From: Mobula hypostoma | Taxonomy: Eukaryota | Length of the DNA: 64,000 nt | NCBI RefSeq assembly: GCF_963921235.1 | Contig: NC_086108.1 | Location: 69,876,001-69,940,000 of the forward strand | Direction: 5' to 3' | Shown: positions 1 to 58,974 of the stretch, one piece after another | Numbering within the stretch: the stretch's first letter is position 1 | How the letters are laid out: the number at the start of each line of letters is the position of its first letter | Translations under genes and position numbers: made by a program | Notes under the pieces: model-generated | The model's database searches: none | Told to the model about the DNA's origin: nothing | What the model saw: only the letters and a program-made list of their open reading frames with translations

Positions 1-170
1 AGGTTTCATGGGTTATTTGGCATGATTTGGTAGGTTATTTTTGGGTCTGCGAACGCTCACAAATTTTTCCCATATAAATAAATGGTAATTGCTTCTTCGC
101 TTTACGACATTTCGGCTTACGAACCGTTTCATAGGAACGCTCTACCTTCGGATGGCGGGGGAAACCTGTA
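1..170. mobile_element. Right end of a pogo/Tigger-like (TcMar) DNA transposon or MITE, truncated by the window edge
   Basis: Ends ...GGGGGAAACCTG followed by TA; CpG-rich subterminal motifs (cgctttacgac, cggcttacgaac) resemble Tigger/MER2-type ends. The left end is outside the window. Confidence 0.55.
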
Positions 171-2022: not shown

Positions 2023-2023
2023 C

Positions 2024-4741: not shown

Positions 4742-4833
4742 GAAAGCAGCATATTTGTGGATACAAAGAAAATGCCCATTATCAAAAAGAAAGTAAGAAA
4801 ATTGGAAGATCAAGATGACTTTGAATCCAGAAG
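4742..4833 (+). CDS. OSBPL9: OSBPL9 exon ([30 protein letters not shown])
   Basis: AAG acceptor at 4739-4741, GTAATG donor at 4834; frame continuous. Confidence 0.93.
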
Positions 4834-5185
4834 GTAATGAGGATCTTCGTATTGAGACTGAATGATTACTTATGAGATGGAAGAGAGTGATATTCTACTT
4901 TTTAATCACAATATTGTAAATCTATTAGGCTATGTAGAAGGTTCATAGTATTTGCTGACCACAAAGATATTTTTAGTTTTCATTATTAAAATACTTTTCC
5001 ATATCCTTTTAAATGGCTCGGAATGATTTTGTTTTTAAGAAGTGCCTAATGTGTATTTTTTTTAAATTTAATATGCACCTTTATATTAAACTACCTCTAA
5101 CACCACAATAGGCATTCCATTATATTTTGTTATATTCTTTACAATCTACTAACTGGAAATTTATATCAATGGGAGTGTAACAGTT

Positions 5186-6728
5186 ATAGAAACATAGAAA
5201 ATAGGTGCAGGAGTAGGCCATTCGGCCCTTCGAGCCTGCACCGCCATTTATTATGATCATGGCTGATCATCCAACTCAGAACCCAGCCTTCCCTCCATAC
5301 CCCCTGACCCCTGTAGCCACAAGGGCCATATCTAACTCCCTCTTAAACATAGCCAATGAACTGGCCACAACAGTTTGCTGTGGCAGAGAATTCCACAGAT
5401 TCACCACTCTCTGTGTGAAGAAGTTTTTCCTAATCTCGGTCCGAAAAGGCTTCCCCTCTATCCTCAAACTGTGACCCCTCGTTCTGGACCTCCCCAACAT
5501 CGGGAACAATCTTCCCGCATCCAGCCTGTCCAATCCCTTTAGGATCTTATACGTTTCAATCAGATCCCCCCTCAATCTTCTAAATTCCAACGAGAACAAG
5601 CCCAGTTCATCCAGTCTTTCTTCATATGAAAGACCTGCCATCCCAGGAATCAATCTGGTGAACCTTCTTTGTACTCCCTCTATGGCAAAGATGTCTTTCC
5701 TCAGATTAGGGGACCAAAACTGCACACAATACTCCAGGTGTGGTCTCACCAAGGCCTTGTACAACTGCAGTAGTACCTCCCTGCTCCTGTACTCGAATCC
5801 TCTCGCTATAAATGCCAGCATACCGTTCGCCTTTTTCACCGCCTGCTGTACCTGCATGCCCACTTTCAATGACTGGTGTATAATGACACCCAGGTCCCGT
5901 TGCACCTCCCCTTTTCCTAATCGGCCACCATTCAGATAATAATCTGTTTTCCTATTTTTGCCACCAAAGTGGATAACTTCACATTTATCCACATTAAATT
6001 GCATCTGCCATGAGTTTGCCCACTCACCCAACCTATCCAAGTCACCCTGCATCCTCTTAGCATCCTCTTCACTGCTAACACTGCCACCCAGCTTCGTGTC
6101 ATCCGCAAACTTGGAGATGCTGCATTTAATTCCCTCATCCAAGTCATTAATATATATTGTAAACAACTGGGGTCCCAGCACTGAGCCTTGTGGTACCCCA
6201 CTAGTCACCGCCTGCCATTCTGAAAAGGTCCCGTTTATTCCCACTCTTTGCTTCCTGTCTGCTAACCAATTCTCCACCCACACCAATACCTTACCCCCAA
6301 TACCGTGTGCTTTAAGTTTGCACACTAATCTCCTGTGTGGGACCTTGTCAAAAGCCTTTTGAAAATCCAAATATACCACATCCACTGGTTCTCCCCTATC
6401 CACTCTACTAGTTACATCCTCAAAAAATTCTATGAGATTCGTCAGACATGATTTTCCTTTCACAAATCCATGCTGACTTTGTCCGATCATTTCACCGCTT
6501 TCCAAATGTGCTGTTATCACATCCTTGATAACTGACTCCAGCAGTTTCCCCACCACCGACGTTAGGCTAACCGGCCTATAATTCCCCGGTTTCTCTCTCC
6601 CTCCTTTTTTAAAAAGTGGGGTTACATTAGCCACCCTCCAATCCTCAGGAACTAGTCCAGAATCTAACGAGTTTTGAAAAATTATCACTAATGCATCCAC
6701 TATTTCTTGGGCTACTTCCTTAAGCACA
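5186..6728 (-). mobile_element. Young 5'-truncated CR1 LINE with an uninterrupted RT-containing ORF2 part
   Basis: ORF 5276-6811 contains NYRPVSLTS, YLDFQKAFDKV, GVPQGSVLGP and KFADDTK; 8-bp microsatellite tail (ATAGAAAC)n; homology to the second copy ends at 6728. Confidence 0.95.
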
Positions 6729-7189
6729 TAGTTAACGATGTGGCATACAGAAATGCCAAACCCCCTCCAATTGTTTTCATATAATGCTTCTAAATGTAGA
6801 ACAATAAGCAAGAGAATTCAGCTATTCTTTTACTTAATTATTTCTGAGATATTACTTATCAGTATAGGCACTAAGTGTTAGGTACTTGAAACTCAGATAA
6901 GGTACATTTCCTAATAGTTTTTTTTTGTTAAATATTTACCTGTTTGTGATTATTTTCTGTCCTCCTTTGTAGATCTCCAAATGTTTCCAGTTTTCCTAAT
7001 AATGCAGCTGAATTTTAACTTTACTAAATTTTAGGCTAGTGCCTCTAAATTATCATGCACATCGTTTGTAAACCAGAAATGTAAGTTTAATGTGAATTAT
7101 TAGATGTGTAAGAATGTTATTCCTTTTTGAGTGGATTGTGACTGTCTTGCAAATTTAAATAGCCACGAGCCTGCATCATCAGTAGGATG

Positions 7190-8270
7190 GCTGCCATTTT
7201 TGGTACCTTCAGCACAAATTGAAGATGATGCTCAAAGATGCTCTATTTGTCTGTGGCTTATAACCCCAATGCGTTCACATCCCTCATCTGGATTCGGTTT
7301 GGACTTGTCCAGCCACTGGAAGCTGCATCACAGACATGACAACTATTGTCGAAAAGTGAAACTAAATGACATATCCACTCAACAGCATAACTGAGAATTA
7401 AACTAGTCCTTCTGTAGCCTTTCTGCTTCTTCAAAACTACTTGCAAACCTAGCCACAAAGTCATCAATTCCATCATTCAAATCACTGACATATAACATAA
7501 AAAGAAGTGGTCCCAACACACAGCCCTGTGGAACACTAGTCACCAGCAGCCAAACAGTAAAGGCTCCCTTTACTCCCACTCTTTGCCTCCTGCCAATCAG
7601 CCAGTGCTAGTGTCTTTCCTGTAATTCCATGGGCTAACTGTTAAGCAGCCTCATGTATGGCACTTTGTTAAAGGCCTTCTGAAAATTCAAGTACACAACA
7701 TCCACCAATTCTCTTTTGTCTATCCTGCTTGTTATTTCTTCAAAGAATTCCAACAGATTTGTCAGACAAGATTTCTCTTAAAGGAAACCATGCTGACTAA
7801 GGCCTATTTTATCACGTGCCCCTTAAGTATCCAAAAACCATATCTTTAACAAAAGACTCCAACATCCTTCCAACCACTGAGGTCAGACTAACTTGCCTAT
7901 AATTTTCTTTCTTCTGCCTCCCTCCTTTATTGAAGAATGGAGTGACATTTACAATTTTCCAGTCCTCCAGAACCATGCCAGAATCCACTGATTCTTGAAC
8001 TTCAGCCACCCCTTTCAGAACTCTGGGGTGTAGACCATTTCATCCAGTTGACTTATCTACCTTCAGCCCTTTCAGTTCCCCAAGCACCTTCTCCCTAGTA
8101 ATGGCAACTTCATTCACTACTAACACTTCAAACTTCTGGCATATTGCTAGTATCTTCTACGGTGAAGACTAATGTTAAATACTTATTCAGTTTGTCTTCT
8201 GCTATTTCCTTGTCACCTATTACTACCTTGCCAACATCACTTTCCAGCAGTCCAATAGCTACTCATCTCT
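7190..8270 (-). mobile_element. Old CR1 ORF2 fragments
   Basis: ORF 7812-8009 (EDWKIVNVTPFFNKGGRQKKENYRQVSLTSVVG) plus frameshifted RT pieces. Confidence 0.8.
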
Positions 8271-8304
8271 TTTACACTTTATATATCTGAAGAAATTTTT
8301 GATA

Positions 8305-8485
8305 AAAGGAGGCTTTTTCATTCACAGAACTGCCACTGTCTGTTTTTTGTTTCTTGCACCATTCTCTGTAAATGCTGGAGACTGTTCTGTGTGAAAAGCT
8401 GAGATTAGCATTTGAGATGCTCAAACTAACTTTTTTGGCACCAACAATCATTCCACAGTCAAAAGTCACTTAGATCACATTTCAC
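8305..8485 (-). mobile_element. Tc1-type transposase N-terminal (HTH) remnant
   Basis: ORF 8272-8469 DCGMIVGAKKVSLSIS...FSHRTVSSIYREWCKKQK resembles the Tc1 HTH region (GMIVGARRAGLSIS..VSRVYREW). Confidence 0.6.
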
Positions 8486-8619
8486 TCTCCTTTTAACACT
8501 CGCTCCCCAGTGAAAACACCTATAATATTAGTACAAATTGTTTCCATCTATTGTAAACTGATGGCTAGAAATTTTGATATGTGTCAAAAAACATGGATTC
8601 TATTTGTGGTTTTCTACAG

Positions 8620-8755
8620 ACTTTGGAAGGACGTAACATATAACTTAAAAATAAAGGATATTGATGCTGCCACAGAGGCAAAACACAGACTCGAAGAAAG
8701 ACAAAGAGCTGAAGCAAGGGAGAGAAAAGAGAATGAAGTTCAATGGGAGACACGG
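8620..8755 (+). CDS. OSBPL9: OSBPL9 penultimate coding exon ([45 protein letters not shown])
   Basis: tttctacag acceptor and GTATGA donor; OSBP-family K..LEE.QR motif. Confidence 0.96.
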
Positions 8756-9128
8756 GTATGAAAGCACACATTTCTCTTTCCAGATTTAACTACTTCTGCA
8801 CCATACAATAATGTTATTATTTATAGTGCAAATGAAAATCTGTTAGTGAAAGCCAAAAAAAACTGTAATGCTGTTTGTGACCCCACAGGAGCTGACAGTG
8901 CAATTAAATTTTCTGGTAGAGGAGAAAGTAGCCTAACCAGTATTGAGAGAAGCGAAGGTGAAAAATTGCAAATTTCTGGCGGTTCTGGGACAAATCAGGT
9001 GGCACCGGAAGCCTAAGGCTCAAATGGTACCCTACACTTAAACTGGGTAGTGAAACCAGTCAAAGCAATACCAGTGGTGGGCAAACTTCTACAAACAACA
9101 ATCGAAGTAAAACTAGCAGGGGTATATA

Positions 9129-10754
9129 CAGTTGAAGTCAGTTGTTTACATACACCTTAGCCAAATACATTTCAACTCAGTTTTTCACAATTCCTGACAT
9201 TTAATCCTAGAAAACATTCCCTGTCTTAGTTCAGTTAGGATCACTGTTTTATGAATGCGAAATGTCAGAATAGTAGTAGAGAGAATGATTTATTTCAGCT
9301 TTTATTTCTTTCATCACTTTCCCAGTGGGTCAGAAGTTTACATACACTTTGTTTGTATTTGATAGCATTGCCTTTAAATTGTTTAATTTGGGTCAAATGT
9401 TTTGGATAGCCTTCCACAAGCTTCTCACAGTAGGTTGCTGGAATTTTATTCCATTCCTCCAGACAGAACTGGTGTAACTGAGTCAGGTTTGTAGGCCTGC
9501 TTGCTTGCACACGCTTTTTCAGTTCTGACCACAAATTTTCTATTGGATTGAGGTCAGAAAATGATGTCAAATCTGGTTCAACCTTGGGAGCAATTTCCAA
9601 ACGCCTGAAGGTACCACGTTCATCTGTACAATCAATAATACGCAAGTATAAACACCATGGGACTATGCAGCCGTCATACCGCTCAGGAAGGAGACGCATT
9701 CTGTCTCCTAGAGATGAACATACTTTGGCGCGAAAAGTGCAAATCAATCCCAGAACAACAGCAAAGAACCTTGTGAAGATGCTGGAAGAAACAGGTAGAC
9801 AAGTATCTATATTCTCAGTAAAACGAGTCCTATATCGACATAACCTGAAAGGCTGCTCAGCAAAGAAGCCACAGTTCCAAAACCACCATAAAAAAGCCAG
9901 ACTACAGTTTGCAAGTGCACATGGGGACAAAGATCTTACTTTTTGGAGAAGTGTCCTCTGGTCTGATGAAACAAAAATTGAACTGTTTGGCCATAATGAC
10001 CATCGTTATGTTTGGAGGAAAAAGGGTGAGGCTTGCAAGCCAAGGAACAACATCCCAACCGTGAAGTTTGGGGGTGGCAGCATCATGTTGTGGAGGTGAT
10101 TTGCTGCAGGAGGGACTGGTGCACTTCACAAAATAGATGGCATCATGAGGAAGGAAAATTATGTGGATGTATTGAAGCAACATCTCAAGACATCAGGCAG
10201 GAAGTTAAAACTCGGTCGCAAATGGATCTTCCAAATGGACAATGACCCCAAGCATACCTCCAAAGTTGTGGAAAAATTGCTTAAGGGCAACAAAGTCAAG
10301 GTATTGGAGTGGCCATCACAAAGCCCTGACCTCAATTCGATAGAAAATTTGTGGGCAGAGCTGAAAAAGCGTGTGCGAGCAAGGAGGCCTACAAACCTGA
10401 CTCAGTTACATCAGTTCTGTCTGGAGGAATGGAACAAAATTCCAGCAATTTACTATGAGAAGCTTGTGGAAGGCTACCCAAAACGTTTGACCCAAGTTAA
10501 ACAATTTAAAGGCAATGCTACCAAATACTAACAAAGTGTGTGTAAACTTCTGACCCACTGGGAAAGTGCTGAATGAAATAAAAGCTGAAATAAATCATTC
10601 TCTCTACTATTAATCTGACATTCCACATTCTTAAAATAGTGATCCTAATTGACCTAAGACAGGAAATGTTTTCTAGGATTAAATGTCAGGAATTGTGAAA
10701 AACTGAGCTTAAAAGTATTTGTCTGAGGTGTATGTAAACTTCTGGCTTCAACTG
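9129..10754 (+). mobile_element. Sleeping-Beauty/Tss1-type Tc1 transposon, rearranged, with ~429 bp inverted ends
   Basis: TA-flanked termini CAGTTGAAGTC.../...GGCTTCAACTG. Transposase runs from KSGSTLGAISKRLKVPRSSVQ to FKGNATKY (about 9569-10531) in one frame, with one TGA at 10097-10099; DD34E residues (WSDE, MDND, IEN) are present. Confidence 0.95.
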
Positions 10755-16311: not shown

Positions 16312-18308
16312 TAGAAACATAGAAACATAGAAACATAGAAAATAGGTGCAGGAGTAGGCCATTCGGCCCTTCGAGCCTGCACCGCCATTTATTATGATCA
16401 TGGCTGATCATCCAACTCAGAACCCAGCCTTCCCTCCATACCCCCTGACCCCTGTAGCCACAAGGGCCATATCTAACTTCCTTTTAAACATAGCTAATGA
16501 ACTGGCCTCAACAGTTTGCTGTGGCAGAGAATTCCACAGATTCACCACTCTCTGTGTGAAGAAGTTTTTCCTAACCTCGGTCCTAAAAGGCTTCCCCTCT
16601 ATCCTCAAACTGTGACCCCTCGTTCTAGACCTCCCCAACATCGGGAACAATCTTCCTGCATCTAGCCTGTCCAATCCCTTTAGGATCTTATACGTTTCAA
16701 TCAGATCCCCCCTCAATCTTCTAAATTCCAACGAGTACAAGCCCAGTTCATCCAGTCTTTCTTCATATGAAAGACCTGCCATCCCAGGAATCAATCTGGT
16801 GAACCTTCTTTGTACTCCCTCTATGGCAAAGATGTCTTTCCTCAGATTAGGGGACCAAAACTGCACACAATACTCCAGGTGTGGTCTCACCAAGGCCTTG
16901 TACAACTGCAGTAGTACCTCCCTGCTCCTGTACTCGAATCCTCTCGCTATAAATGCCAGCATACCGTTCGCCTTTTTCACCGCCTGCTGTACCTGCATGC
17001 CCACTTTCAATGACTGGTGTATAATGACACCCAGGTCTCGTTGCACCTCCCCTTTTCCTAATCGGCCACCATTCAGATAATAATCTGTTTTCCTATTTTT
17101 GCCACCAAAGTGGATAACTTCACATTTATCCACATTAAATTGCATCTGCCATGAGTTTGCCCACTCACCCAACCTATCCAAGTCACCCTGCATCCTCTTA
17201 GCATCCTCCTCACTGCTAACACTGCCACCCAGCTTCGTGTCATCCGCAAACTTGGAGATGCTGCATTTAATTCCCTCATCCAAGTCATTAATATATATTG
17301 TAAACAACTGGGGTCCCAGCACTGAGCCTTGCGGTACCCCACTAGTCACCGCCTGCCATTCTGAAAAGGTCCCGTTTATTCCCACTCTTTGCTTCCTGTC
17401 TGCTAACCAATTCTCCACCCACACCAATACCTTACCCCCAATACCGTGTGCTTTAAGTTTGCACACTAATCTCCTATGTGGGACCTTGTCAAAAGCCTTT
17501 TGAAAATCCAAATATACCACATCCACTGGTTCTCCCCTATCCACTCTACTAGTTACATCCTCAAAAAATTCTATGAGATTCGTCAGACATGATTTTCCTT
17601 TCACAAATCCATGCTGACTTTGTCCGATCATTTCACCGCTTTCCAAATGTGCTGTTATCACATCCTTGATAACTGACTCCAGCAGTTTCCCCACCACCGA
17701 CGTTAGGCTAACCGGCCTATAATTCCCCGGTTTCTCTCTCCCTCCTTTTTTAAAAAGTGGGGTTACATTAGCCACCCTCCAATCCTCAGGAACTAGTCCA
17801 GAATCTAACGAGTTTTGAAAAATTATCACTAATGCATCCACTATTTCTTGGGCCACTTCCTTAAGCACTCTGGGATGCAGACCATCTGGCCCTGGGGATT
17901 TATCTGCCTTCAATCCCTTCAATTTACCTAACACCACTTCCCTACTAACATGTATTTCGCTCAGTTCCTCCATCTCACTGGACCCTCTGTCCCTTACTAT
18001 TTCTGGAAGATTATTTATGTCCTCCTTAGTGAAGACAGAACCAAAGTAATTATTCAATTGGTCTGCCATGTCCTTGCTCCCCATAATCAATTCACCTGTT
18101 TCTGTTTGCAGGGGACCTACATTTGTCTTTATAAGTCTTTTCCTTTTTACATATCTATAAAAGCTTTTACAGTCCGTTTTTATGTTCTCTGCCAGTTTTC
18201 TCTCATAATCTTTTTTCCCCTTCCTAATTAAGCCCTTTGTCCTCCTCTGCTGAACTCTGAATTTCTCCCAGTCCTCAGGTGAGCCACTTTGTCTGGCTAA
18301 TTTGTATT
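16312..18308 (-). mobile_element. Young 5'-truncated CR1 LINE with an uninterrupted ORF2 part
   Basis: 646-aa ORF 16417-18357 with the full RT motif set; (TAGAAACA)n tail; near-identical to 5186-6728. Confidence 0.95.
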
Positions 18309-20430
18309 CAATGTCAATGTCAATAGCACTGCAACTGTTTCTTCTTCCAGATGACAACCAATAGCAGCATGAAAATCATTTTCTCTTCTCACTCAAATTC
18401 CATGGCTAATCACCATCATGTAATGTACTCCAGTTCTTGCCCTATTATGGCACCAGGAATAGTTTCTATTTACAATGTCTTGAGACTTAAAGATTTAAAA
18501 TCCCAGATATACTTTCGATTTCCCCAACTTTCAATATAGTAACCTCTTCTGCTTCAATACCATCAACAACAGTCTCTTCAGCGTATCTACAACAAAAATT
18601 GATTTCAGGGCTGAATATTCTCAATCTTTTTTGGACTTTTCCTGAAGATTTCAAGTCTTTTCTGAAATGCCCATTATTACACTGATGCGAGTAATATACA
18701 TCATATCTGCACTGTGGCACACGCCATAAATGTACTGTAACTAAGTGAAATCATACAGTGCCAAAATACAAGATCCACATTCATAACTGATTTTCAGGGT
18801 GCATTACATGAGTACTGCTTATATTTTATTTGAGAGGGGTTCTAGCATTTTCTCCGACTCACAACGCTCAGGGATTAGGTAAGAGTTCTGGAAGTGGGAA
18901 AGTGATGGAATTCAAAGATCAAGGTTCATGGGAGAAATGTGGTGTAAAAGTAGTTCAAGTTGAGTAAAGGCCTAGGGGTTAGTTTAAGAAGCCAGCCCAG
19001 GCTGCTGCAGATCCCCACAATGCAGCACTTGAGACAACGCCTCACAGATGAAGGATGTGGAAATGCAGCACTCTGAAAAGCCTGATCACAACTTCAGACC
19101 AGCAAAAGAGGGGCTTGTGACTGGAAACCCAATCAACATAGTGACACCATACCCAAATCATTTTGCCTTATTTTCTACTCTGACGGGCCTCATTTATCTT
19201 TAGTTCTCTATACCTGCCTCACATTTCCTTTATCTCTAACCAATCTCAATAATACTCAATGCCCAGAATCACCTGAACCTGTTCCAGGCCTTTACATTTG
19301 CACTGAATTCTTGTTATTTCTCCTTTGAATTCCTTCCCACAGTGCAAATGTACTCTTCGCTGTAAATGGATGCTCCTGTTCTAATGAAATCAGCATTCCG
19401 CCATTTTAAGATGTTTATTTCTGGCCCACCCCCATCTTTTTCCAAGTACTTTGAAATATAGAGCTACAGTCACTCCTCCCATAATACACCCCCACCAACA
19501 TTCCTTTCACTCAATCAGCTTCTTTGCCCAAGATCCAGTAATGCTCCTTTCCTCATTAGTTTAATCAAAATTCTGTGTCAAAAAGCTGTCCAGATACATT
19601 TCAAAAATTCCATCCTTCCTCAGCCTTTAAGACAAGCCCAATTATTCTTCAGGAAATTAACATTCTCTGGTACCATAACCCAATTGTATTGCCAAAATAT
19701 TGTTCTTTTATCTCTCATTGTCTTGTTGGGAGATCTGTAATACATCCTAATAAGATGTCAACATACTTTGTTCCTAATTTCTACTCATTTGAGAAACTTT
19801 CAAGGATATCCTCTCTCAGTACTGAAGTCATGCACTAATTAACAGTGCAATGCCACCTCCTCTTTCACTTCCCTGTCTCACCTGAATATATTGTACCCTG
19901 GGATATTGAGTTGCTAGTACTGTCCACCTTCAACCATGTCTCTGTGATGGCATCCATATTGTGTTTCTATGCATAAATCAGCTGAGTTCATCTACTTTAC
20001 TAGTTGTCTCCTTGTGTTTAAATAGGCGCAATATAGCTTTGAATTCCCATTATGACTTCCTCTGCCAACTGGACTTGCTATTTTCCTCTCCATCCAAACA
20101 CCTAGACCAACAGCACAGGCAAATCTTCCCCTCAATGAGGTTGGTCCTGTTCTAGTTAAGGTGTAATCTCCCTTCCCCAGAAGCAATCCTAGTGATTCAG
20201 GAAACTAAACACCATCCCTTCAAACAAGCATTCATCTGACCTATGCTAATACTCAATAATCTTAGCACTAGAAGCAATCCAGAAGGGTAGTTGTAAGGAA
20301 AGATTGTAATGGCTGAGTTTATTCTCATTAGAATGTAGGAAGGTGAGGAGTGACCTTACAAAATGAAACAGGGTACAGATAGTAATTTTCCCAGGGAATT
20401 AGAGTCTGGAACTAAAGGGTGCAGGTTTAA

Positions 20431-20762
20431 AAACACAAACACGAGGAAATCTGCAGATGCTGGAATTTCAAGCAACACACATAAAAGTTGCTGGTGAATG
20501 CAGCAGGCCAGGCAGCACCTCTAGGAAGAGGTACAGTCGACATTTTGGGCCGACGAAATACGAGGGCAAACTAGCCAACAATAAAAAGCACAATACTAAA
20601 AGTTTTTTCAGTTATATAGAGTAAAAGGGAAGTAGATATTGGACTAGTGGAAAATGATGCTGGTGAAGTAGTAATGGGGGACAAAGATATGGCCCCGAAA
20701 CGTCGACTGTACCTCTTCCAAGGGATGCTGCCTGGCCTGCTGCATTCACCAGCAACTTTTAT
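20431..20762. mobile_element. Fold-back Penelope-like pLTR insert enclosing a CR1 fragment
   Basis: 14-bp TSD GGGTGCAGGTTTAA (20417-20430 / 20763-20776); inverted pLTR arms; loop ~20553-20692 is CR1 ORF2-like. Confidence 0.85.
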
Positions 20763-23234
20763 GGGTGCAGGTTTAATGTGGTTTGTGGTGGGGGGGGGAG
20801 CAGGGATTTTAAAGGAGCTCTGAGGGATGTTTTTGCAGACAAATGATGCTAGTTTTCTGGAAAAGACTGCTAGAGGCAGAAACAACGACAATACTTAAAA
20901 GGCATTTGGACAGGAAAGACGTAGCATGCAGGCCCAAGGCAGACAAGTAGGATTAGTATGGATAGGATGATGCCAATACAAATACATAAAGCACTGAATT
21001 GCAGCAATTTGGTGTTTTTGAGCAGTGGCCAATCAGAGATCTGAAGCATGAGAAGATGTAGCTCATCGATGGAGTGCATAAGGCATTGACTCACAGCAGT
21101 TTGGTGTTTTTGAGCAGGAGCCAATAAGCAATCCAGATTGATTTGCAAGAACAAATTAAATTAAAGCAGGGACAAGTGGAGCGGCCATTTTTGGAGTGGA
21201 CAGTGTTAAAGAATGGGGGTTTTGAAGTTTCAGCGAGGAGAGACTTGGGTCACAAAGCATAAAGCTGTAGTTAGATTCCCCCTCACAGATGATTATCCTT
21301 CTTTGTACAAACGTTTGTATTTACTCAGTTAGAGTAGGAGGATGCCAGGCAAGATAGATGAATGTTCCTCTTGTAGGATATGGGAAGACAGGGAGACTCC
21401 ATTGTTCCTGATGACTATACCTGTGAAAAGTGCATCTTATACTCCACCTTAAGGAATTTGAACTGGAACTGGATGAAGTCCGGATCATTCAGGAGACTGA
21501 TGGGGGGTGATAGGTAGGACATATAGGGAGGTTGTTACACCCAAGGTGCAGGACCCAAAAACTGGGTCACAGGAAGGGGCAAGTTGTTAAACAGCCAATG
21601 GGCACCAGGTCCAACTCTCTGACTCAGAAAGGAAGGCGGAGGGGGGGAAAGAGGTGAGCAGTGGTGAGAGGAGATTCGTTAGTTAGGAGAACAGAAGGGA
21701 GATCCTGTGGATGCAAACGAGATTCCCTGATGATATGTTGTCTCCTAGGTGCTGGGAAATCTCGGATCGAGTCTTTAGCTATTCAGCCTTCCACTTAAAA
21801 ATGCTGGAGGACATGGTCCATGTTGGTAGCAATGACATAGATAGGAAGAGTGATGAGGTTTTGGAAAATGAATTCAGGGAGGTAGGTGCTAAGGTAAAAG
21901 GCAGGATCTCCAGGGTTGTGATCTCAGGATTGCCATGTGCTATTGAGGCCAGAAATAGGGAGATTATAGAGGTTAACTAACAGTGGCTGAAGAATTGGTG
22001 CAGGAGGGAGGACATAAAATTTTTTTAGATCTTTGGGCTGTTTTCCAGGGAAGGTAGGACCTGTACAGAAGAGACTGTTTGGACCTGAACTGGAAGGGGA
22101 CTAATATCCTAGCAGAAAGGTATACCAATGCTGTACAGGGGGTTTTAAACTAGAATTGCAAGGTGTCAGGAACCAGAGTGCCAGCACAGATAAAGGAGAG
22201 GTTGTGGACACATGTTGTTAAGACCTCAAAGTCAGGAACCAAAAGGTTCAGCATGGTGCAACTGATATCCTGAGTTGCACGTATTTAAATACAAGTAGTA
22301 TTGTAGGAAAGGCAGGTGAGCTCAGGGCACGGATCAAAACATGGAACTGTGATATTGTGGCCATTCGTGAGACTTGCTTGCAGGAGGGACAGAACTGGCA
22401 ACTTAATATTCTGGGTTTTTGTTGGTTAAGATGCGACAGAGTGGGCGGGCAAGTGATATTGCTGTTCAGAGGAAGTGTCACAGCAGTACTGAGTACAGAC
22501 TGGAGAATTCGCCTACTGAGGTGTTATGCATGGAAATGAGGAATAAGAAAGGCATGACCATGTTAATGGGCTGTATTACCTACCACCCAACAGTCCATGG
22601 GAATTAGAGGAACAAATTTGTAGAGAGATCGCAGACTGTTTCAAGAAACAAGATTGTTATAGTAGGTGATTTTAACTTTCCACGTGTTGATTGGGACTCC
22701 CATGCTGTAAAAAGACTACATGGATGGAGCTTGTCAAATGTGTTCAGAAAAGTCTCTAATCAGTATGTAGAAGTCTCAACAAGAGAGACCATATCTTATG
22801 AGTAATTAATGCAGAAAACCAGGTAATTGCAAAAGGTTCACAAACTGAGGAAAAGGATTGCAAGAGACAAAGCTGGTCCTCTGTAAGATCAGAACAGTAG
22901 TCAATGTGTGGAGCCAAAAGAGATGGGGGAAGACCTTAAATGGATGTTTTTGTATCTGCATTTACTCTGGAGTCAGACACAGAGCATACAGAAGTGAGCC
23001 AAGGTAGCATCGACTTCATGGACCCTTTACAGATTACAGAGGAGGGAGGTGTTTGCCGTCTTGAGGCAAATTAGGGTGGATAAGTCTCTACGGCCTGACA
23101 AGGTGTTCTCTTGGACCCTGTGGGAAGCAAGTGCAGAAATTGCAGGGGCCCTAGCAGAGATATTTAAATTACTCTTAGTAACAGGTAAGGTACCAGAGGG
23201 TTGGAGGATAGCTAATGTTGTTCAGCTGTTTAAG

Positions 23235-27393: not shown

Positions 27394-29039
27394 CTGTTGA
27401 AGTAAAAAGATGAAAAAATTAACAAACTGAAATCCATACATCCTAACTGAAATACAGCATTGCTCAAATCATGCAATAATCAAAACAAAGGCAAAAGAGC
27501 AGGACAACCAAAGAAATAAACTTTATTAGCTTGCAGCTGAACATTAGATTGGCAAAACAATGTCTGAACTAGTAACCGCTCCGAGTGTTCTGCTCAGCTT
27601 CCTAAACCCGGTTCCATTTACTTCAATAGACCCGAATTGCAGAAGAAGGTAGAACATGCAGCTGCTGGTATAAAGCACATTTAGCTACAGGAGGATTTCT
27701 ACATAACAAAATCATAGTAAAGTAAATGTTAAGTTTAATAAAATAATGCCCAACCTTAGTAGAGCAATTCAGAAAGCTCTGTTTCACAATTCTTTACTAA
27801 GAGCCCTGCAAATTGTTGTTTATTTTAAGTATGTATCATCCGAACCTGTAACCACTCCAGGTTCAATGACTTGCTGCATAAAAATCAGTTTCTTTGTCTT
27901 GTTACTTCTGTATCTATTGGTAATCTTGACTGTTCCGCAAATGAAAAGTTTCTTTTTACCATATCTAAACCCCAAAGTAAATTTCTTACTATTAAATCTA
28001 CTCTTTCCCAACTATGTGACACTATAATTACAGAGAGAAGCAAATTTAGTATTTTTGAAAGGATTCATGTAGCAAAATTACCAACATCAAAACAAATATG
28101 TAAACTTGGATACAAGTTATGATGCACAAACTTAGTTTTTAAAAAATGCTATTTCGGTGTTGCTTAAATTACCACGAAACACTAGATGCGACTCCCTGAC
28201 TTGTCTTACTAAATAGGCATTAACCCACCCCGAGATGTTATCTTTATATTATCCATAACTTGAATTCCACCTACATTAGACTCAAGAGATACAGAATTGA
28301 AACAGGGCCTTGGGTCCACAGAGTCTGTGACAAACTTGCCCTCATCTATTTTATCCTTCCTACACTCGTTAACTCTCCACTCCTGTCCACATTCTATACA
28401 GTAGGGGAAATTTTAAATAGGCAATTACTCTAGCTATCTACATATCTTTTGTGATGTGAGGGGAAACAGAACACCCAGAGGATCAGCGAGCAGTCACAGG
28501 GGAACTTGCAACCTCCTCACAGACAGCACTGAAGATCAGAATTGGAAATGGGTCACTGGAGCCATGAAGCAGCAACTCTACAAGGTATGTCACTGTGCTG
28601 TCCAAAACTGCACAATGGTGACCTGGGTACCTACTAACCTGAATCAACCCAAATTCATTTAAAGACAAGATCATTTCTGAGGTGATAATTCTTATCACCT
28701 AAAATTTTTTTTTAAGGAAATTGGAGGACAGCAAGGGGAGGCAAATGTGAGAGACAATTTTTTTTTATATAAACACACACACCCCTCTACCACCAGGGAG
28801 TAGAGGTAAATATATTAGGACATTTAAGAAATGTTACAGGTCAGCCCCAGGTACTGTTGTCAGTTTTTAAAGCCCACTTCATCTGATAACGTACAGCATA
28901 TTTCCTCAAATCCATCGGTAGATTAATCTTAGAGTAGGTTATAAGGTCAGTACAACGTTGTGAACCAAAAGGCCTGTACTATGTGTAGGTATATTTTGTA
29001 TTCTACAATTTGCCAGGGGAAGCCCAATTGGAATTTCAC

Positions 29040-29990
29040 TGTCCATGCTGGCCAAAATATCTCTTTTGCATAATCTACTAAGAGATTTATTTATTTTATA
29101 TGTGATTTGGATACTAATGCTTGATCAGCAAGCTGCAGATGCACTAAATTATGAGATACTGCTGGTAGTGAAGGTTATTGTAGATTACAAGGGAATCTTG
29201 ATCAGTTAGGGAAGTAGGCTGAGGAGCAGCAAATGGAGTTCTTTACAGCAAAGTGTAAAGTGATGTATCTGGGAAAGTCAGACCAGTGGAGGACTTACAC
29301 TATGAATGGTAGGGCACTAGAGAATGTAATGGAACAGAGGAACCTACAAATACGTCCATTGTTTGTTGAAAGCAGCATCGTAGGCAGACAGGTGTTCAAA
29401 AGACAATTAGCATGCTGGCTTTCATCAGTCAGAGCACTGAGCATAGGAGTTAGGGTATTATAGTAATGATCTTTAAAGATTCACTAGATTCTGGAATGGC
29501 TCCGGAAGACTGGAAAATTGCAAATGTCACTTCACTCTTAAAGAGGGGAGAGAGGCAGAAGATAGGAAACTATAAGCCAATTAGTGGGGCTGAGGAGGGG
29601 GAAAAAAGGATCAGCTATGATTGGCGGAACAGACTCAACGGGCCAAATCTGCTCCTATGTCTTATGGTCTTAATTGACTCCAAAGTCTGACCCCTGTGGA
29701 GTCAACTAAGGATGAAGTCTCAAGGTATTTGGAGGCACATGATAATACAGACTTGTAGTCAGCACGGTTTCCTCGAGGGAAAATCTCTTCTGACAAATCT
29801 GTTGGAATTCCTTGAAGAAATAACAAGGATAGACAAAGGAGAATTGGTAGATGCTGTGTACTTGGATTTTCAGAAGATCTTTGACAAGGTGACACACAAG
29901 GCTCTCAACAAACTACAAGCCCATGGTATTACAGTAAAGACTTGTTAGGCTGAAGGGCCTGTATCCATACAGTATTGCTCTATGGCTCGG
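29040..29990 (+). mobile_element. Mosaic of CR1 ORF2 fragments
   Basis: ORFs 29233, 29466 (EDWKIANVT..GNYKPIS) and 29712 (QHGFLEGKSLLTNLLEF..YLDFQKIFDKV). Confidence 0.8.
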
Positions 29991-30029
29991 AAATTATTTG
30001 CTCAGGCATTCTGACAAGACCAACAAGAC

Positions 30030-30695
30030 CCAGGATACTACAGATGCTGGAATCTGAAGCAACAAACACTTTACTGGAGGAACTCAACAGGCCATGTAGT
30101 ATCTGTGGATGGAAAGGAATCGTTGACATTTTGGGTTGAAACTCTGCATCAGGACAGAGTGGAGAAGCAAGATGGCCAGCAGAGAGGGTTCCAAAAAGTG
30201 ATAGGTAGACTGAGGATGGGTGTGAGATGGCATGCAGGTTGTGCCAAGTAGGGGAGGTGAAGGGATGGAGTTGGAAGCCTGTAGCAGGTGACAGATGGAG
30301 GCACAGGTACAGGAAAAAACGGATGGAGAAAGGTTGCAGGGGTAGGGGGGAGAAGAGGAGCATAAAGATAAGAGGCAATTGCTGGAGGGAGATACAAGCA
30401 GCACAAAGCACTGCCAAAGCTGGATCTGTAAAAGTAAAGGAGATGAAAATGCAAGCCTTTAGAGTTGGAACCAGATGGTGGGGTGGAGTTACAGCAAGGA
30501 AATTGTGTGTGAAGTGGGTGGATGAGCCTGGAGCGGGAAGGGGTTGAAGATGGGTGAAGGGGGTGGGGGAGAGAGTGGGCAAGAGGCCAACCAGCTCTGA
30601 AGCAGGGTTTTGACCTTTAAATGTCAACTTCTTTTCCTCTGACAATGCTGCATGACCCCTTGATTTGCTTCAGCACATTGTTGGTTGCTCCAACG
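30030..30695. mobile_element. Old fold-back Penelope-like terminus with a purine-rich spacer
   Basis: Degenerate pLTR at 30035-30155 and an inverted degenerate pLTR at 30595-30692, both with decayed CTGA..GAAA motifs. Confidence 0.55.
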
Positions 30696-31250
30696 TCCTG
30701 AAGAGATTGAAATGCACTCAAATGTGAATGTGACTAATGCAAGAATGTGTTTCAGCAGCAGATCTAAAACACCGATGAAAGAGAGTGTCTTAACACACTC
30801 TCAGTGATGGAGTGCATGTGCTTTTGGAATCTCAGCTCAGGATATGTAAGTTTGAATAGTTTTCTTTCAAATGATCCAGCTCACGTGAATGTGGATATTA
30901 GTGGCTGGGTAAAAGAGAAAGACAATAGTTTTTTTGGGGGGTGGGGGTTGGAAAGCACGTGGAGATGAATTGCACAGGTTTAATCAGAGTAACTGAGAAT
31001 TTAATAAAAAACTGCACATATAGCAAATCTGAAACAAAAAAGAAAACACTGGAAACTCTCAGCAGGTCAGAAGAGTTTCCAATGTAAATGGTTAACATTT
31101 ATTTTCCCATTTTTCCACAGAGGCTCCTTTGTTTCCACCACCTCCACTGCCTCCCCCACTCCACCAATCCAGCATTTTCAGTTTTTATTTCTTTGGTGTA
31201 CAGTTACCAGGGTCAGGAAAAGATGTGCAAGCTGACTAAACGGAAGCAGT

Positions 31251-31418
31251 AAACACGAGGAATTCTGCAGATGCTGGAAATTCAAGCAAAACACGTCAAA
31301 ATTGCTGGTGAACACAGCAGTCCTGACGAAGGGTCTCGGCCCGAAACGTCGACTGTACCTCTTCCTAGAGATGCTGCCTGGCCTGCTGTGTTCACCAGCA
31401 ACTTTGATGTGTGTTGTT
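31251..31418. mobile_element. Fold-back Penelope-like pLTR insert
   Basis: 14-bp TSD with one mismatch, TAAACGGAAGCAGT (31237-31250) / TAAACAGAAGCAGT (31419-31432); inverted arms surround a hammerhead motif. Confidence 0.85.
31318..31355 (+). ncRNA. Minimal type I hammerhead ribozyme motif (Penelope-associated)
   Basis: CAGTC-CTGACGA-A-GGGT(CTCG)GCCC-GAAA-C-GTC/GACTG: stem I CAGTC:GACTG, core CUGANGA and GAAA, stem II, palindromic ACGT stem III, predicted cleavage after 31350. Confidence 0.75.
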
Positions 31419-31605
31419 TAAACAGAAGCAGTTACAGTTTCAAAATTTATCAGCACATTTGTGGAATAGACATGTCTCCAATTTTTTAGCGACAGTTACA
31501 TTTGTTTAAATTAAAAGCTCTATTGGATTAACAAAAGCTATACAGAAGAACTGATTTTGAAAAGATTTACAATGTCTTCTTTGAATTATTTGTAATATTA
31601 CTTAC

Positions 31606-31696: not shown

Positions 31697-32590
31697 CTGT
31701 TCAAGAATTTAAATACAATTAATAATGCTGGAATCAGGACCCTATACATTAAACTATAAAATTCCATTTGAAATGGAAATAAGGGTTGTTCCACAGTGCA
31801 CATTCAATAAGATCATGGCTATTCCTCTACCTGGAATCCACATTCATTCTAATCCCCATTCCCTCTATTCCCATAAATTCATCATCGACTTAACTGCAAC
31901 TCTCTGCATTACAGAAGTTCTAAGACTTGAAACCTCCAAAGTAAAGACATTCCCACTTACTTAATGGGCTGACCTCTTACCCCAAGTTCTAGATTCATCA
32001 GCCAAAGCAATCTGTTTCGCAGAATTCATTATATTTTAAAATCAAAATCATTTCACACATCTGATTTTCAATGAGGTTAGGGTTATTCTCCTCAATCTCT
32101 CTGATTGAAAAACCCCTTTACCCATGAATCAATGAAGTGAATCTACATTGTACCCAAAGAAAATGTAGCTGCCTTGAAAATGGTGCAGGGACAAAAACTG
32201 CATCCAATAAAGTATATACAGTGAGGTCAGCCCATAGTTCTATACAAATACAGCAAGATTTCCTTACCCTTGCACCCCAGCTCCCCTCGATTCCTAAATG
32301 TTCACTACCCAAACGTTAACTTTGTAATCATTCTGAACATCCGCATTTACTAGCTCAAAAATAAAATACAAATACTAGAATTCTGAAATGAAAAGAGAAA
32401 CAACAGGAATTGCCAGCAGCTGTGAATATTCAGCAGAAGCTCAAGAGAAAGCAATCTTTAAGATGTAGAAAATTAAAAGGAAGGAGCAAAGCACACAAAA
32501 AGGAATATGATAGTGTAAGGCATGAAAGTATAAATGCGAAAATCAGGTGATGCCGAAAGAAGTTGATAAAGGGATTAGTGAATAACACAA

Positions 32591-32766
32591 ACACGAGGAA
32601 TTCTGCAGATGCTGGAAATTCAAGCAACACACATCAAAGTTGCTGGTGAACGCAGCAGGTCAGGCAGCATCCTGACGAAGGGTCTCGGCCTGAAACGTCG
32701 ACTGTACCTCTTCCTAGAGATGCTGCCTGACCTGCTGCGTTCACCAGCAACTTTGATGTGTGTTGC
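32591..32766. mobile_element. Fold-back Penelope-like pLTR insert with a hammerhead core
   Basis: Perfect 14-bp TSD AGTGAATAACACAA (32577-32590 / 32767-32780); CTGACGA (32672)...GAAACGTC (32692-32699); stem I truncated by the inversion junction. Confidence 0.87.
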
Positions 32767-47312: not shown

Positions 47313-47472
47313 ACAACATACATCAAAGTTGCTGGTGAACGCAGCAGGCCAAGCAGCATCTATAGGAAGAGGCGCAGTCGACGTTTCCTATAGATGCTGC
47401 TTGGCCTGCTGCGTTCACCAGCAACTTTGATGTATGTTGCTTGAATTTCCAGCATCTGCAGAATTCCTGTTG
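47313..47472. mobile_element. Fold-back Penelope-like pLTR insert with a perfect 55-bp stem
   Basis: 13-bp TSD TTTGGAAGGAGTT (47300-47312 / 47473-47485); arms 47314-47368 and 47385-47439. Confidence 0.88.
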
Positions 47473-48366
47473 TTTGGAAGGAGTTTAAGGGTTTGAAGGA
47501 CTAAAGTGCGGTGATAGTGGAAGAAGAGTAAAGGTTAAGGGACTTCTTTAAGAAGCTACGGCAGCTCCCCATAACGCAGCATGTCAGAGAATATGCCTCA
47601 CAGGTAAACAGCGTGGCAGCACTGCACTCTTGGAACAACTGTTGATGTTTCTGGACTGGAGAGGCTTTGGCAAAGGAGGCTACCCCTATCTCTTCACTAC
47701 GTTAAGTGACTAAAACTACAAATTGACAAAAGGTTTCTTTTGCATTCTGTGTTTACTTAGATTACTGTGTTTACATCCATCGGGATGAATTTTATACCGT
47801 ATCTCAAATATTTGTTATGACTTGTGAAGGAGGTACAGGAACCTCAGGCCACACACCACCAGTTTCAGGTACATTTACTTCTCAACCATCAGGCTCATGA
47901 ACCAGAGGGGATAATTTCATTCACCCCATCACTGAACTGATGCCACAACCTATGGCCTCACTGTCAAAGACTCTACAACTTGTTCTCGATATTTATTTAT
48001 TATTATTTTGTTTTTCTCTCTTTTAGTATTTGCAGTTGTCTTTTGCATATCGGTTGTTTGTCTGCTTTGCTGTGTACAGTTTTTCCACTGATTCTATTTT
48101 GCTTCTTCGTATCTACTGTGAATGCCCACATGAAAATGAATCTCAGGGTAGCCAACGGTGACATATGATAATTAATAACTTTAATACATTTACTTTGAAC
48201 TTCGATTTGCGTCTGGGCAAATTCCTGAAACCCAAATGGGGCCTGCTTTTCAATGTTCCAATTTAAATGTTCCTTCATGTCAGGAATAAGGAACTACAGT
48301 TGAGTGAGAAACAGTGTTTTTAGTTAAGTACACAACTAACAATGGAACTCAGAGTGAATTACATAC

Positions 48367-56101: not shown

Positions 56102-56750
56102 TGTGACGAGAATACACATAGATTAAGATGTTAGCTGTCCTGTGCTGGCACCAGTGGGATCAGCAGTTGGTCTGCCACCTGTCTTCAGGAGAGAGAGAGA
56201 GATAAGGAAAACAATGGAGCAGCATTGGAGATGTTAATGAAGGGATGGGAGAGAGTAACGGAAGGAGAGCTGTCAAGATCGGCTCCCCCCTTTGAACCCT
56301 GAACTGTTTGAAGTGATGGACAGGCGATACCCCAGCAGGGGGATAAAAAGGGACAGGTTCGCTAAGGCGACACACACGACACCCGAGGTAATGAGACCCT
56401 GGAAGCAGTGCGTCTCTCACAAGTCGGTGGAAAGTTTTGGAAGGCCGGTTGCGGGACCAGGCCATAGACGCACAGGGTGGAAAGGCACGATCGGCAGGAA
56501 CCTGGTGTGTGTCCACCCTTGCCTGGGTGCCGGGTTCACCACAGAGAAACGATCGTATCGGTAAACGGAGGGGTCACGGTCGGTGACCTCAGATGACATC
56601 ACAAAGGACTCGCCCGAAAGCTGACTGCGGTCTGTGTGGAAGCTGTTTTGAATATTCGTTCGTTTTGCTCTCTCTCTCCTTCCCCCCACAGACTCCAACT
56701 GAGTGATCCATTTCTGCTAGTTTAGCAACCCAGTTACGGGGTACGTAACA
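56102..56750 (+). repeat. 5' LTR (649 bp, internally deleted)
   Basis: Direct repeat of 59986-60869 lacking ~235 bp. Confidence 0.92.
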
Positions 56751-56754
56751 TAAG

Positions 56755-56773
56755 TGGGGTTCTCGTCCGCGAT
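56755..56773 (+). promoter_or_regulatory. Degenerate primer-binding site for tRNA-Pro
   Basis: TGGGGTTCTCGTCCGCGAT versus the canonical tRNA-Pro PBS TGGGGGCTCGTCCGGGAT, 4 nt after the LTR. Confidence 0.8.
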
Positions 56774-56849
56774 TTTGAACGCTAAATTTGGGACGGAGTA
56801 AATTGATTGGGTCAAAATTCCCAAAAGAAAGAAAAGACAAACAGCAGAA

Positions 56850-58974
56850 ATGGAGGCTGAGGAATTTATAAAGGCGCCGACCTTGGAGGCATTAGAGGAT
56901 GCCAGGAAATCGGAATTGGTAGCTGTGGCCAAACGGTTGAATCTTGCTAAGGGGAAGTCGACAATGAGGAGAGAGGAGATACACAGAGCTATCGTAGAGC
57001 ACTATGTATCTAAAGGTGTGTTTCCCCAAGGTGAGCTGGAGGTGGTGTCTATTGAAAAACCTGCTGGAAACGCGGTACAGGTGCAGCTTGAAAAACTGAG
57101 ACTCGAGCACGAGTTCCAGGTACGGCAGTTAGAACACGAAGAGAAGCAGTTAGAAAGGCGGGAGAGAGAGAGAGAGTTGGAAAGGCGGGAGAGAGAGAAA
57201 GAGTTAGAAAGGCGGGAGAGAGAGAGAGAGTTAGAAAGGCGGGAGACAGAGAGACAGAGAGACAGAGAGACAGACACACACACAGTTGGAGCGAGAGGAG
57301 AAACACAGGGAAAGGGAATTCGAGCTGGAGAAGTTAAGGATAAGGACAGAGCAGGGGCTCGTGCCGAACCAAGGTGGAGGGTTCCAGGTGACCCAGGTTA
57401 GGCTGGTTCCCCCATTTAGCGATACCGACGTGGATCGGTACTTTCTCCATTTCGAAAAAGTTGCTACAAGTCAGGACTGGCCGAGGGATAAGTGGGCTGT
57501 TTCGCTTCAGAGTGTACTGAAAGGGAAAGCCCAACAAGCTTACTCAGCTTTGTCCGTGGAAGATGCCCAGAGGTATGAGGTGGTGAAAGAGGCCATCCTC
57601 AGGATTTATGAGTTGGTCCCGGAGGCATACTGGCAGAGGTTCCGTAATGCGAGGAAGCAGTGGGACCGCACGTACTTAGAGTTTGCCCGTGAGATGCAGA
57701 CATATTGTGAGCGTTGGTGCGCCTCGAAGGGGGTAGAGGGGGATTATGACAGACTGCTACAGCTGATCCTGGTCGAGCAGTTTAAAGGTTGTGTCCCTGA
57801 GGGTATGAGACCTTACCTAGATGAGAAAGAGGCAGCCATGTTAGCCGCAACTGCTAAGTTAGCGGATGAGTATGCGTTGACGCATAAAATGAAGTTTGCC
57901 CCGAGTAAAGGCTACCAGAAGGGTAGTCAGGATGGCGGGGAGAGTCCGCCAGAAAAGTCAGAAAGTAAGCCGGGGACTAACAAGAAGGATAAGGTAGACC
58001 GGGAGCAGTCTGGTAGGAAGTCTCCTGGGGTCGTCTGTTATAATTGCGGGAAAGTCGGACACTTTGCGTCCAGGTGCTTTGCCCCAAAGAAGGAGATGGG
58101 AAAAGGAAAAACGGCGATTTTGACTGGCTGTATCGAGCTGATAAAAGAACCGCTAGGACAGGACAGGTCTGCCAAAGTTCAGGAAGGGCGCAAGAGGTTT
58201 ATCTCGGCCGGGTTGGTGTCGGTGAAGGAGGGGTTAAAACCAGTTCCAGTGCGGATCTGGAGAGACACGGGAGCGTGTCAGTCACTAATACTGAAGAGTG
58301 TATTAGAGTTTAGCTCAGAGACCCAGACTGGGGAGGTCAAGGTCAAAGGTATTGGGGAAGGGACAAAGGCCGTCCCTTTGCACCAGATACACTTACAAAG
58401 CAACCTGGCCTCTGGACTAGTCACGATCGGGGTGAGGCCCGAATTACCGATGAAAGGCGTGGAAGTCCTGCTCGGTAATGACCTCGCCGGGGGAATCGTG
58501 TTCCCAGCAGTGGGATTGACAGGTCAGCCTGCCAGCATTGAGGCCCCACTCATGGACTCACAGGTTCATCATGGGACTGCGGTAGTAAATTTAGCTGAGA
58601 CGTTTCTGCCAGCCTTGTACGAGAAGGGGGTAGAAAGTGAAAAGAAGGAGTGTAGTGAGACAAGAGGTAGTGAGGGAGCTGAGACAGACTTAGCATTAGC
58701 CAGGAAGGAATTTGTGCAGGTGCAGGAGCAAGACGAGGGGCTGATGGTTTTGGCAGAGACAGCTCTCTCTGACACAGAATTAACAAGGGAACCAGTAGGC
58801 TATTGTGTGGAGGAGGAAGTGCTAAGGAAGAAAGGGAAACCAAGTACCGTACCCGCAGATGAGGACTGGGGGGTGGTACAAAAGAGTTATGGGGATGAGA
58901 TTTTTAACCTGGCCCACAAGGTACCCCCGGTGGACACTTTGCGGTGCTGGAGGAAACAGTTGGTGGAATCATGA
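56850..58974 (+). pseudogene. Gag-protease polyprotein split into two frames (56850-57401 and 57286-58974)
   Basis: Capsid-like VPPF..DVDRYFLHFEKVA...W; zinc knuckle CYNCGKVGHFASRC; protease RDTGA and LLGND; frameshift within a GA/CA microsatellite. Confidence 0.85.
57148..57284 (+). repeat. Tandem 24-27 bp units plus GA/CA microsatellite encoding ELERRERER repeats
   Basis: AGTTAGAAAGGCGGGAGAGAGAGAG about 4 times, then (GAGACA)n(CA)n. Confidence 0.9.

What the first reader, a model, noticed from the sequence alone, without database searches (positions are those of the whole stretch)
31318..31355. Apparently complete minimal hammerhead ribozyme in the loop of a TSD-flanked fold-back insert
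Seen: CAGUC-CUGACGA-A-GGGU(CUCG)GCCC-GAAA-C-GUC^GACUG. It has the hammerhead core (CUGANGA, GAAA, GUC triplet), a perfect 5-bp stem I, a 4-bp stem II, one extra A after the core, and stem III reduced to the palindrome ACGU. Known: Penelope-like elements carry minimal hammerheads in their pLTRs, proposed to cleave as dimers through such palindromic stem III. Inference: this is the least-decayed copy in the window (CpGs intact) and could self-cleave after 31350 when paired with a second copy.
Basis: partly seen in the sequence, partly recalled or inferred. Interest (0 to 1): 0.8.

Follow-up and report, generated by a model that had tools for sequence, protein, structure and literature searches.

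The report
Penelope retroelement relic with minimal hammerhead
This is a real, letter-perfect minimal hammerhead ribozyme motif inside a 168-base hairpin-shaped leftover of a very abundant Penelope-like jumping gene; such motifs are already described, and this copy is predicted to misfold and is likely inert.

Summary
The motif is there as described. It is one of 6,052 exact genomic copies of a 32-mer from the terminal repeat of a Neptune-type Penelope-like element, whose full-length relatives encode RT plus GIY-YIG. The 168-bp insert (inverted tail-bearing arm, shorter sense arm, 14-bp TSD) is the textbook PLE structure. (1) The fifth stem I pair comes from the inversion junction, and the fold-back arm is predicted to take stem I's 5' strand (pairing probability 0.002). 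(2) The C11.1 form is an older subfamily; a U11.1 form has 39,517 exact copies and marks ORF-bearing copies. (3) No covariation was found, and the insert lies antisense in a nardilysin intron. Family-wide, 25 of 95 sampled arms stop at the ribozyme's 5' edge and 1 at the cut site; genome-wide the cut site is about 2-fold over two neighbouring positions. Cleavage was not testable. The scan has reported this family many times on other DNA of this genome. Ordinary; low interest.

The parts
31237..31250 (.). left target-site duplication (14 bp)
   Evidence: D16: 13 of 14 identical to 31419-31432
31251..31320 (-). inverted 5'-truncated copy of the element's 3' end, including the tail (about +61 to +129, counting from core C3)
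31319..31320 (.). 2-nt microhomology (AG) at the inversion junction; C31318 lies on the inverted-arm side
   Evidence: against the native flank
31319..31418 (+). sense 5'-truncated copy of the pLTR, from -4 to about +95, without tail
31319..31354 (+). minimal type I hammerhead motif: 4-bp native stem I, core 31323-31329, extra A 31330, stem II 31331-31342 (C11.1 form), GAAA, ACGT palindrome, predicted cut after 31350
   Evidence: features as defined in PMC4209133
31419..31432 (.). right target-site duplication
   Evidence: D16
27397..31599 (-). nardilysin intron that holds the insert (flanking exon matches 31698-31600 and 27396-27274); the hammerhead is antisense to this transcript
32589..32765 (+). 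neighbouring fold-back copy of the same family, U11.1 form, stem I 5' strand mostly lost at its junction

Best explanation
The feature is a 168-bp, 5'-truncated, partly inverted copy of the terminal repeat of a Neptune-type Penelope-like retroelement, flanked by a 14-bp target duplication, and its hammerhead motif is a passenger that is likely inert at this locus. Shown: family membership, arm structure, TSD, junction and intronic antisense position. Inferred mechanism of origin: the element's RT-endonuclease nicked both target strands 14 bp apart and primed two cDNAs, one from each of the two internal start sites in the pLTR RNA (tail end near +129 and near +95). The sense cDNA ran through an uncut hammerhead and stopped at the 5' edge of stem I, and the two cDNAs were joined through a 2-nt microhomology. 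Inferred role of the motif in the parent element: weak, dimer- or protein-assisted cutting of tandem pLTR transcripts. Predicted fate here: the inverted arm captures the stem I 5' strand and the core pairs GACG with CGUC, so the RNA would not reach the active fold even if transcribed.
For: 6,052 exact copies, control 0; 85,959 copies with CpG positions left free. Longer copies continue upstream into GIY-YIG. A 1,043-aa frame with RT (YIDD), a CKRNKCYTC linker and GIY-YIG is bracketed by two same-strand motifs in L062; 3 of 20 long-ORF loci show such a bracket (L062, L066, L072). 3' ends are bimodal: 52 of 95 at +84..105 and 42 of 95 at +122..134; 25 of 27 fold-back records pair a tail arm with a short arm (some fold-backs are counted once per arm). 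This matches the tail and inverted copy described in bioRxiv 2021.04.23.441226 and the two RT start sites and both-strand extension in PMC11167929. Folding: stem I probability is 0.99 alone and 0.002 in the insert; the cleavage-ready fold costs 4.1 against 8.3 kcal/mol. Damaging CpG changes are about as common as tolerated ones in a hand count of the first 100 of 85,959 matches: G8A 6 vs C7T 10, G16.2A 10 vs C15.2T 5, G1.1A 13 vs C17T 4. Antisense in a nardilysin intron.
Against: The motif itself is undamaged (1 mismatch in 81 nt from its subfamily majority, median 3). Nearest-neighbour folding ignores Mg2+, tertiary contacts, co-transcriptional folding and proteins; stem I could form before the 3' arm is transcribed. 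In PMC11167929 a PLE hammerhead cut once the element's protein was added. Plus-strand transcription of this locus was not measured. The Pfam RT and GIY-YIG scores of the two full-length frames were below Pfam's cut-offs (GIY-YIG was above it in L003). No RT tree was built.
Confidence: 0.9

Rival explanations
1. Passenger of the same origin but catalytically competent: a plus-strand (antisense to nardilysin) transcript is cut after 31350 when paired with another of the tens of thousands of copies, or with help from the element's protein.
For: All core letters and the ACGU palindrome are intact. Dimeric min-HHRs showed low activity in vitro (PMC4209133) and a PLE hammerhead was protein-assisted (PMC11167929). 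Partner sequences are abundant.
Against: Stem I is predicted lost in context and no pairing with the 32672 copy is predicted. The ACGU duplex is worth only -3.1 kcal/mol. No transcript is known on that strand. PMC11167929 found no RNA-seq ends at the cut site of its element.
Confidence: 0.07
2. A self-propagating non-autonomous mini-element (retrozyme- or MITE-like) that moves as a fold-back unit.
For: It has a TSD, terminal inverted arms and a hammerhead; fold-backs are common (33 of 95 sampled arms have an inverted neighbour).
Against: Junctions differ from copy to copy, so each fold-back was made anew at insertion. There is no tandem array here, whereas active non-LTR retrozymes are defined by two or more tandem units (bioRxiv 2026.07.22.740005).
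Confidence: 0.02
3. A host-domesticated ribozyme regulating nardilysin.
For: It is intronic, about 180 nt from an exon end, with an intact motif.
Against: It lies on the wrong strand for the pre-mRNA; about 6 or more intact copies per 3.5 Mb are expected anyway from 6,052 in 3.48 Gb; the arms and TSD have diverged as a neutral insert would.
Confidence: 0.01

Closest known systems
Minimal hammerheads (min-HHR) of metazoan PLE pLTRs, including fish Xena, Poseidon and Neptune (Cervera and De la Pena 2014, PMC4209133; parts 1-2 of 4 of the text read)
   Same: Type I layout, 4-5 bp helix I, unpaired base between positions 9 and 10.1, G10.1-C11.1, palindromic 15.2-16.2 with no loop 3, location in pLTRs, mostly single truncated copies
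   Different: Helix II is short (3 G-C + U.G) against 7-8 bp in Schistosoma; copy number is about ten times the 4,000-9,000 given for coelacanth and Xenopus (different search methods); the dominant subfamily here has U at 11.1, a position that paper calls highly conserved
EN+ Penelope-like insertions with an inverted 5'-truncated copy and a 30-40 bp tail (Craig et al., bioRxiv 2021.04.23.441226, passages read; Frangieh et al. 2024, PMC11167929, parts 1-2 of 4 read)
   Same: Inverted truncated copy next to the sense copy, tail on one end only, two 3' end classes about 35 nt apart
   Different: Extremely short; no coding sequence retained; the Anolis element is Poseidon clade with its ORF starting inside the hammerhead, here the long frame starts downstream of it
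Non-LTR retrozymes (bioRxiv 10.64898/2026.07.22.740005, parts 1-2 of 5 and passages read)
   Same: Non-coding, PLE-related, type I hammerhead
   Different: Not a tandem repeat; a single motif; made by truncation and inversion

Membership tests
PLE minimal hammerhead (min-HHR) | CUGANGA and GAAA boxes with an NUH cut triplet | tested here: met
PLE minimal hammerhead (min-HHR) | [quoted passage not shown] | tested here: met
   A31330; feature
PLE minimal hammerhead (min-HHR) | G10.1-C11.1 pair | tested here: met
   met in this copy (31331/31342); not in the U11.1 subfamily, 39,517 exact copies
PLE minimal hammerhead (min-HHR) | palindromic 15.2-16.2, no helix III loop | tested here: met
   ACGT 31346-31349
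PLE minimal hammerhead (min-HHR) | lies in the pLTR of a PLE | tested here: met
PLE minimal hammerhead (min-HHR) | helix I of 4-5 bp forms | tested here: inconclusive
   present in sequence and predicted alone (0.99); predicted lost in the insert (0.002)
PLE minimal hammerhead (min-HHR) | compensatory changes in helices I and II | tested here: inconclusive
   1 two-sided change in 297 cells, 463 of 500 shuffles as high; rows are decayed copies with nearly invariant stems, so power is low
PLE minimal hammerhead (min-HHR) | self-cleavage as a dimer | not testable with these tools
   needs an in vitro assay; only contigs, no raw RNA reads, were offered
EN+ Penelope-like element, Neptune type | single ORF, RT followed by C-terminal GIY-YIG | tested here: met
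   L062 and L063; Pfam hits E 4e-6 and 1e-3, under the curated cut-offs
EN+ Penelope-like element, Neptune type | CX2-5CxxC linker upstream of GIY-YIG (Neptune and Nematis) | tested here: met
   CKRNKCYTC at residue 910; feature
EN+ Penelope-like element, Neptune type | pLTRs, inverted truncated copy, one-sided 30-40 bp tail | tested here: met
EN+ Penelope-like element, Neptune type | RT groups with Neptune rather than Nematis in a tree | not tested
   no reference RT set fetched
Non-LTR retrozyme (active) | two or more tandem units each with a full hammerhead | tested here: not met
Rfam hammerhead families | covariance-model match | tested here: not met
   none among 15 hits at E up to 10

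The most novel reading that the evidence does not exclude
The novelty, if any, is in the family and not this copy. Its tens of thousands of truncated copies record where the template RNA ends: a strong stop at the 5' edge of stem I, just behind a splice-acceptor-like or initiator-like sequence, and a weaker one at the cut site. The youngest, most abundant subfamily replaced the conserved G10.1-C11.1 pair with G.U (or an A-U register shift). This would be a genome-scale natural experiment showing that short PLE copies are run-off cDNAs from the transcript's 5' end and that retrotransposition uses mostly uncut RNA, with the ribozyme tuned down or cutting only a minority of transcripts in vivo.
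Probability: 0.25. Interest if true: 0.45.

Novelty: new member of a known kind. Interest (0 to 1): 0.13.

Why it matters
As a locus it matters little: it is one of thousands of identical relics. As a family it offers a cheap handle on an open question, whether PLE hammerheads cut in vivo and at which step. There are two natural variants (C11.1 and U11.1) of different age, full-length copies with two pLTRs, and a large record of cDNA end points.

Tried and rejected
Rfam scan: no hammerhead model matched. Covariation count on 33 copies (30 with purine at N7, 2 main-family, the window copy): not above shuffles. A descriptor scan of 830 kb gave 179 hits (156 main family, 23 other; reversed control 6), with no family showing clearly different stems. 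Public runs: 18 listed, all contigs and nearly all only guessed to be RNA. Laying 4 of them on a full-length element showed no joint ending at the acceptor-like site among the 15 of 282 joints shown; contigs give no strand or ends, so this is no evidence either way. No read or contig data were obtained for the window locus itself. Spliced-template idea for the pile-up at -7..-3: the upstream flanks of those copies share no sequence (by eye), so no common first exon is seen. A strong spike of 5' ends at the cut site is rejected: 1 of 95 arms; 552 genome-wide against 294 and 207 at two control positions; 14 of 20 inspected are fold-backs, several with GAC or GACT microhomology. The PF22456 search missed the downstream nardilysin exons; a homologous protein found them. 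Lunse et al. (RNA Biol 14:1499) was not held: I saw only its title and citation in PMC6765202, so it or its supplements may already cover 11.1 variants or cartilaginous fish. A search for Penelope + elasmobranch + hammerhead ribozyme found 0 papers; a search on G10.1/C11.1 gave no activity data that I read. No supplements were read.

Full report
Observation. They lie in an insert at 31251-31418 between 14-bp direct repeats with 13 of 14 matches. The 32-mer from the core to the end of stem I occurs 6,052 times exactly in the 3.48-Gb genome, and the reversed control 0 times. Rfam has no matching hammerhead model among 15 hits at E up to 10.

What it belongs to. Among the first 30 exact copies, several continue upstream into a frame ending in a GIY-YIG domain. 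I picked 20 of the 150 listed RT matches for long open frames and fetched them. [quoted passage not shown] The Pfam scores for the full frames are significant or borderline but under the curated cut-offs. The linker fits the CX2-5CxxC motif given for Neptune and Nematis. I built no tree, so Neptune is the likely label, helped by the report of Neptune hammerheads in fishes. The best full-length match by identity to a host exon is a stingray nardilysin (96%), so the host is probably a cartilaginous fish.

Anatomy of this copy. Counting from core C3, the left arm is an inverted copy of about +61 to +129 and the right arm a sense copy of -4 to about +95; they overlap by AG. The native sequence upstream of the core is TTAGTC, so the C that makes the fifth stem I pair perfect comes from the junction; natively that pair is U.G. 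An older subfamily does have CAGTC natively. In 95 unique arms anchored downstream of the motif (101 records, 6 duplicates dropped), 3' ends fall in two classes, 52 at +84..105 and 42 at +122..134, and 25 of 27 fold-back records join one of each. This is the inverted truncated copy with a one-sided tail described for PLEs, and it fits two internal RT start sites and extension of both target strands shown in vitro for an Anolis PLE. The two-cDNA origin is my inference from these.

Would it cut? Alone, the 38-mer forms stems I and II but also pairs GACG of the core with CGUC at the cut site; the open-core fold costs 4.1 kcal/mol. The same holds in native C and U contexts (4.1-4.4). In the insert the long arm takes the 5' strand of stem I: probability 0.002, cost 8.3 kcal/mol. 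On a plus-strand RNA spanning this copy and the one at 32672, no cross-pairing is predicted. By the double-hammerhead model (figure legend; my reading of it), cutting after 31350 would need the partner's core and stem I strand, which the 32672 copy mostly lacks. These are nearest-neighbour predictions without Mg2+, tertiary contacts or protein, and a PLE hammerhead has been shown to cut only with the element's protein. The insert lies in a nardilysin intron on the minus strand, between exon matches at 31698-31600 and 27396-27274, so the pre-mRNA carries the antisense, whose own sense arm lacks the motif. I have no expression data for the locus; only contigs were offered.

Age and selection. 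The copy is well kept (1 mismatch in 81 from its group majority), but its C11.1 form is the older one. The U11.1 32-mer has 39,517 exact copies. In my hand count of the first 100 of 85,959 degenerate matches, 77 are U forms (48 otherwise intact) and 23 C forms (6 intact); the mirror change G12A is seen in only 3 of the 23, so U11.1 is not mainly decay. U copies average 2.0 mismatches (n=59) and C copies 3.5 (n=35). In the 20 long-ORF loci 29 of 33 motifs are U forms; these loci were chosen by likeness to one RT query and may lean to its subfamily. Contigs of two organisms show roughly one C to three or four U at this place. Damaging and harmless CpG changes occur at similar rates, as expected for dead copies. 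Covariation on 33 copies is not above shuffles; the test is weak because the stems hardly vary. An older subfamily changes the free core position N7 to A and differs in both flanks while keeping the stems; this is mild support for constraint in parent elements, with the caveat that the core letters were fixed by my pattern.

Where cDNAs stop. Of 95 arms, 25 end at -7..+7 (2.0% per base against 0.41% just downstream and 0.25% at -19..-100); among ends within 40 bases of C3 this is 25 of 45 (p 3e-8), and 10 of 18 without an inverted neighbour (p 5e-4). One ends at the cut site. The window copy, starting at -4, is in this class. The main subfamily reads pyrimidine tract, CAG, TTAGTC there and the older one pyrimidine tract, CAG, TC. 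That resembles the Drosophila virilis case, where an intron ends at helix I 46+75 bases after the start site; TCAGTT also resembles an initiator (recalled, from no call). I cannot tell a transcript start, a splice-related end and template switching apart; microhomology between the two strands explains part of the inverted cases. Genome-wide, clean starts number 552 at the cut site, 294 four bases downstream and 207 four bases upstream; 14 of 20 inspected cut-site starts are fold-backs, several with GAC or GACT microhomology. So the cut site is at most mildly favoured, and every copy that spans it, this one included, came from uncut or religated RNA (inference).

Comparison and verdict. It meets every sequence feature of the min-HHRs in PMC4209133, whose monomers did not cut and whose dimers cut weakly; a review repeats this (passages). 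It fails the tandem test for retrozymes. One search found no paper holding Penelope, elasmobranch and hammerhead ribozyme together, but a 2026 preprint includes one chondrichthyan genome, and Lunse et al. could not be read. Earlier notes of this scan describe the same family many times; I had reached my reading before seeing them, and two conflicting notes prompted. Verdict: real, a new member of a known kind, likely inert here. Interest 0.13.

Noticed in passing
genome-wide; L061-L080: The dominant and ORF-bearing subfamily has U at hammerhead position 11.1 (39,517 vs 6,052 exact copies), giving G.U or an A-U register shift with the extra A; effect on activity unknown.
   Followed up: partly
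element positions -25..-3 upstream of the core (e.g. L003, L020, L199): Branch-point-like sequence, pyrimidine tract and CAG directly before or inside stem I in both the main and the older subfamily; 5' truncations pile up here. Three arms also end at -18/-17, next to the possible branch point (too few to judge).
   Followed up: partly
31323-31350: N7 = C lets GACG pair with CGUC and lock the monomer in an inactive rod; the older subfamily with N7 = A lacks this pairing.
   Followed up: partly
window 16005-61054 and beyond to about 93732 (minus strand): Nardilysin gene; about 24 exon matches mapped by tblastn with a stingray protein.
   Followed up: yes
window 1941-2023, 3600-3736, 20437-20767, 32589-32765, 47313-47475; faint at 30035-30160: Further truncated or fold-back copies of the same element; the two inside nardilysin introns on its sense strand (20438-20553, 47313-47387) lack the first core box.
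   Followed up: partly
L072: Long-ORF copy whose upstream motifs are the C form and whose downstream motif is the U form, suggesting a chimeric or nested insertion.
   Followed up: no
window 5276-6817 and 16417-18375 (minus): Two nearly identical long open frames (513 and 652 aa) that look like CR1-type LINE reverse transcriptase (label recalled, not scanned); apparently young.
   Followed up: no
window 9482-10531 (plus): Broken Tc1/mariner-like transposase frames (label recalled, not scanned).
   Followed up: no
window 56160-60456: LTR-retroelement-like stretch: repeated ends near 56160-56573 and 60007-60456, a 579-aa gag-like frame with a CCHC motif and broken downstream frames (labels recalled, not scanned); it lies within the nardilysin gene span.
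   Followed up: no
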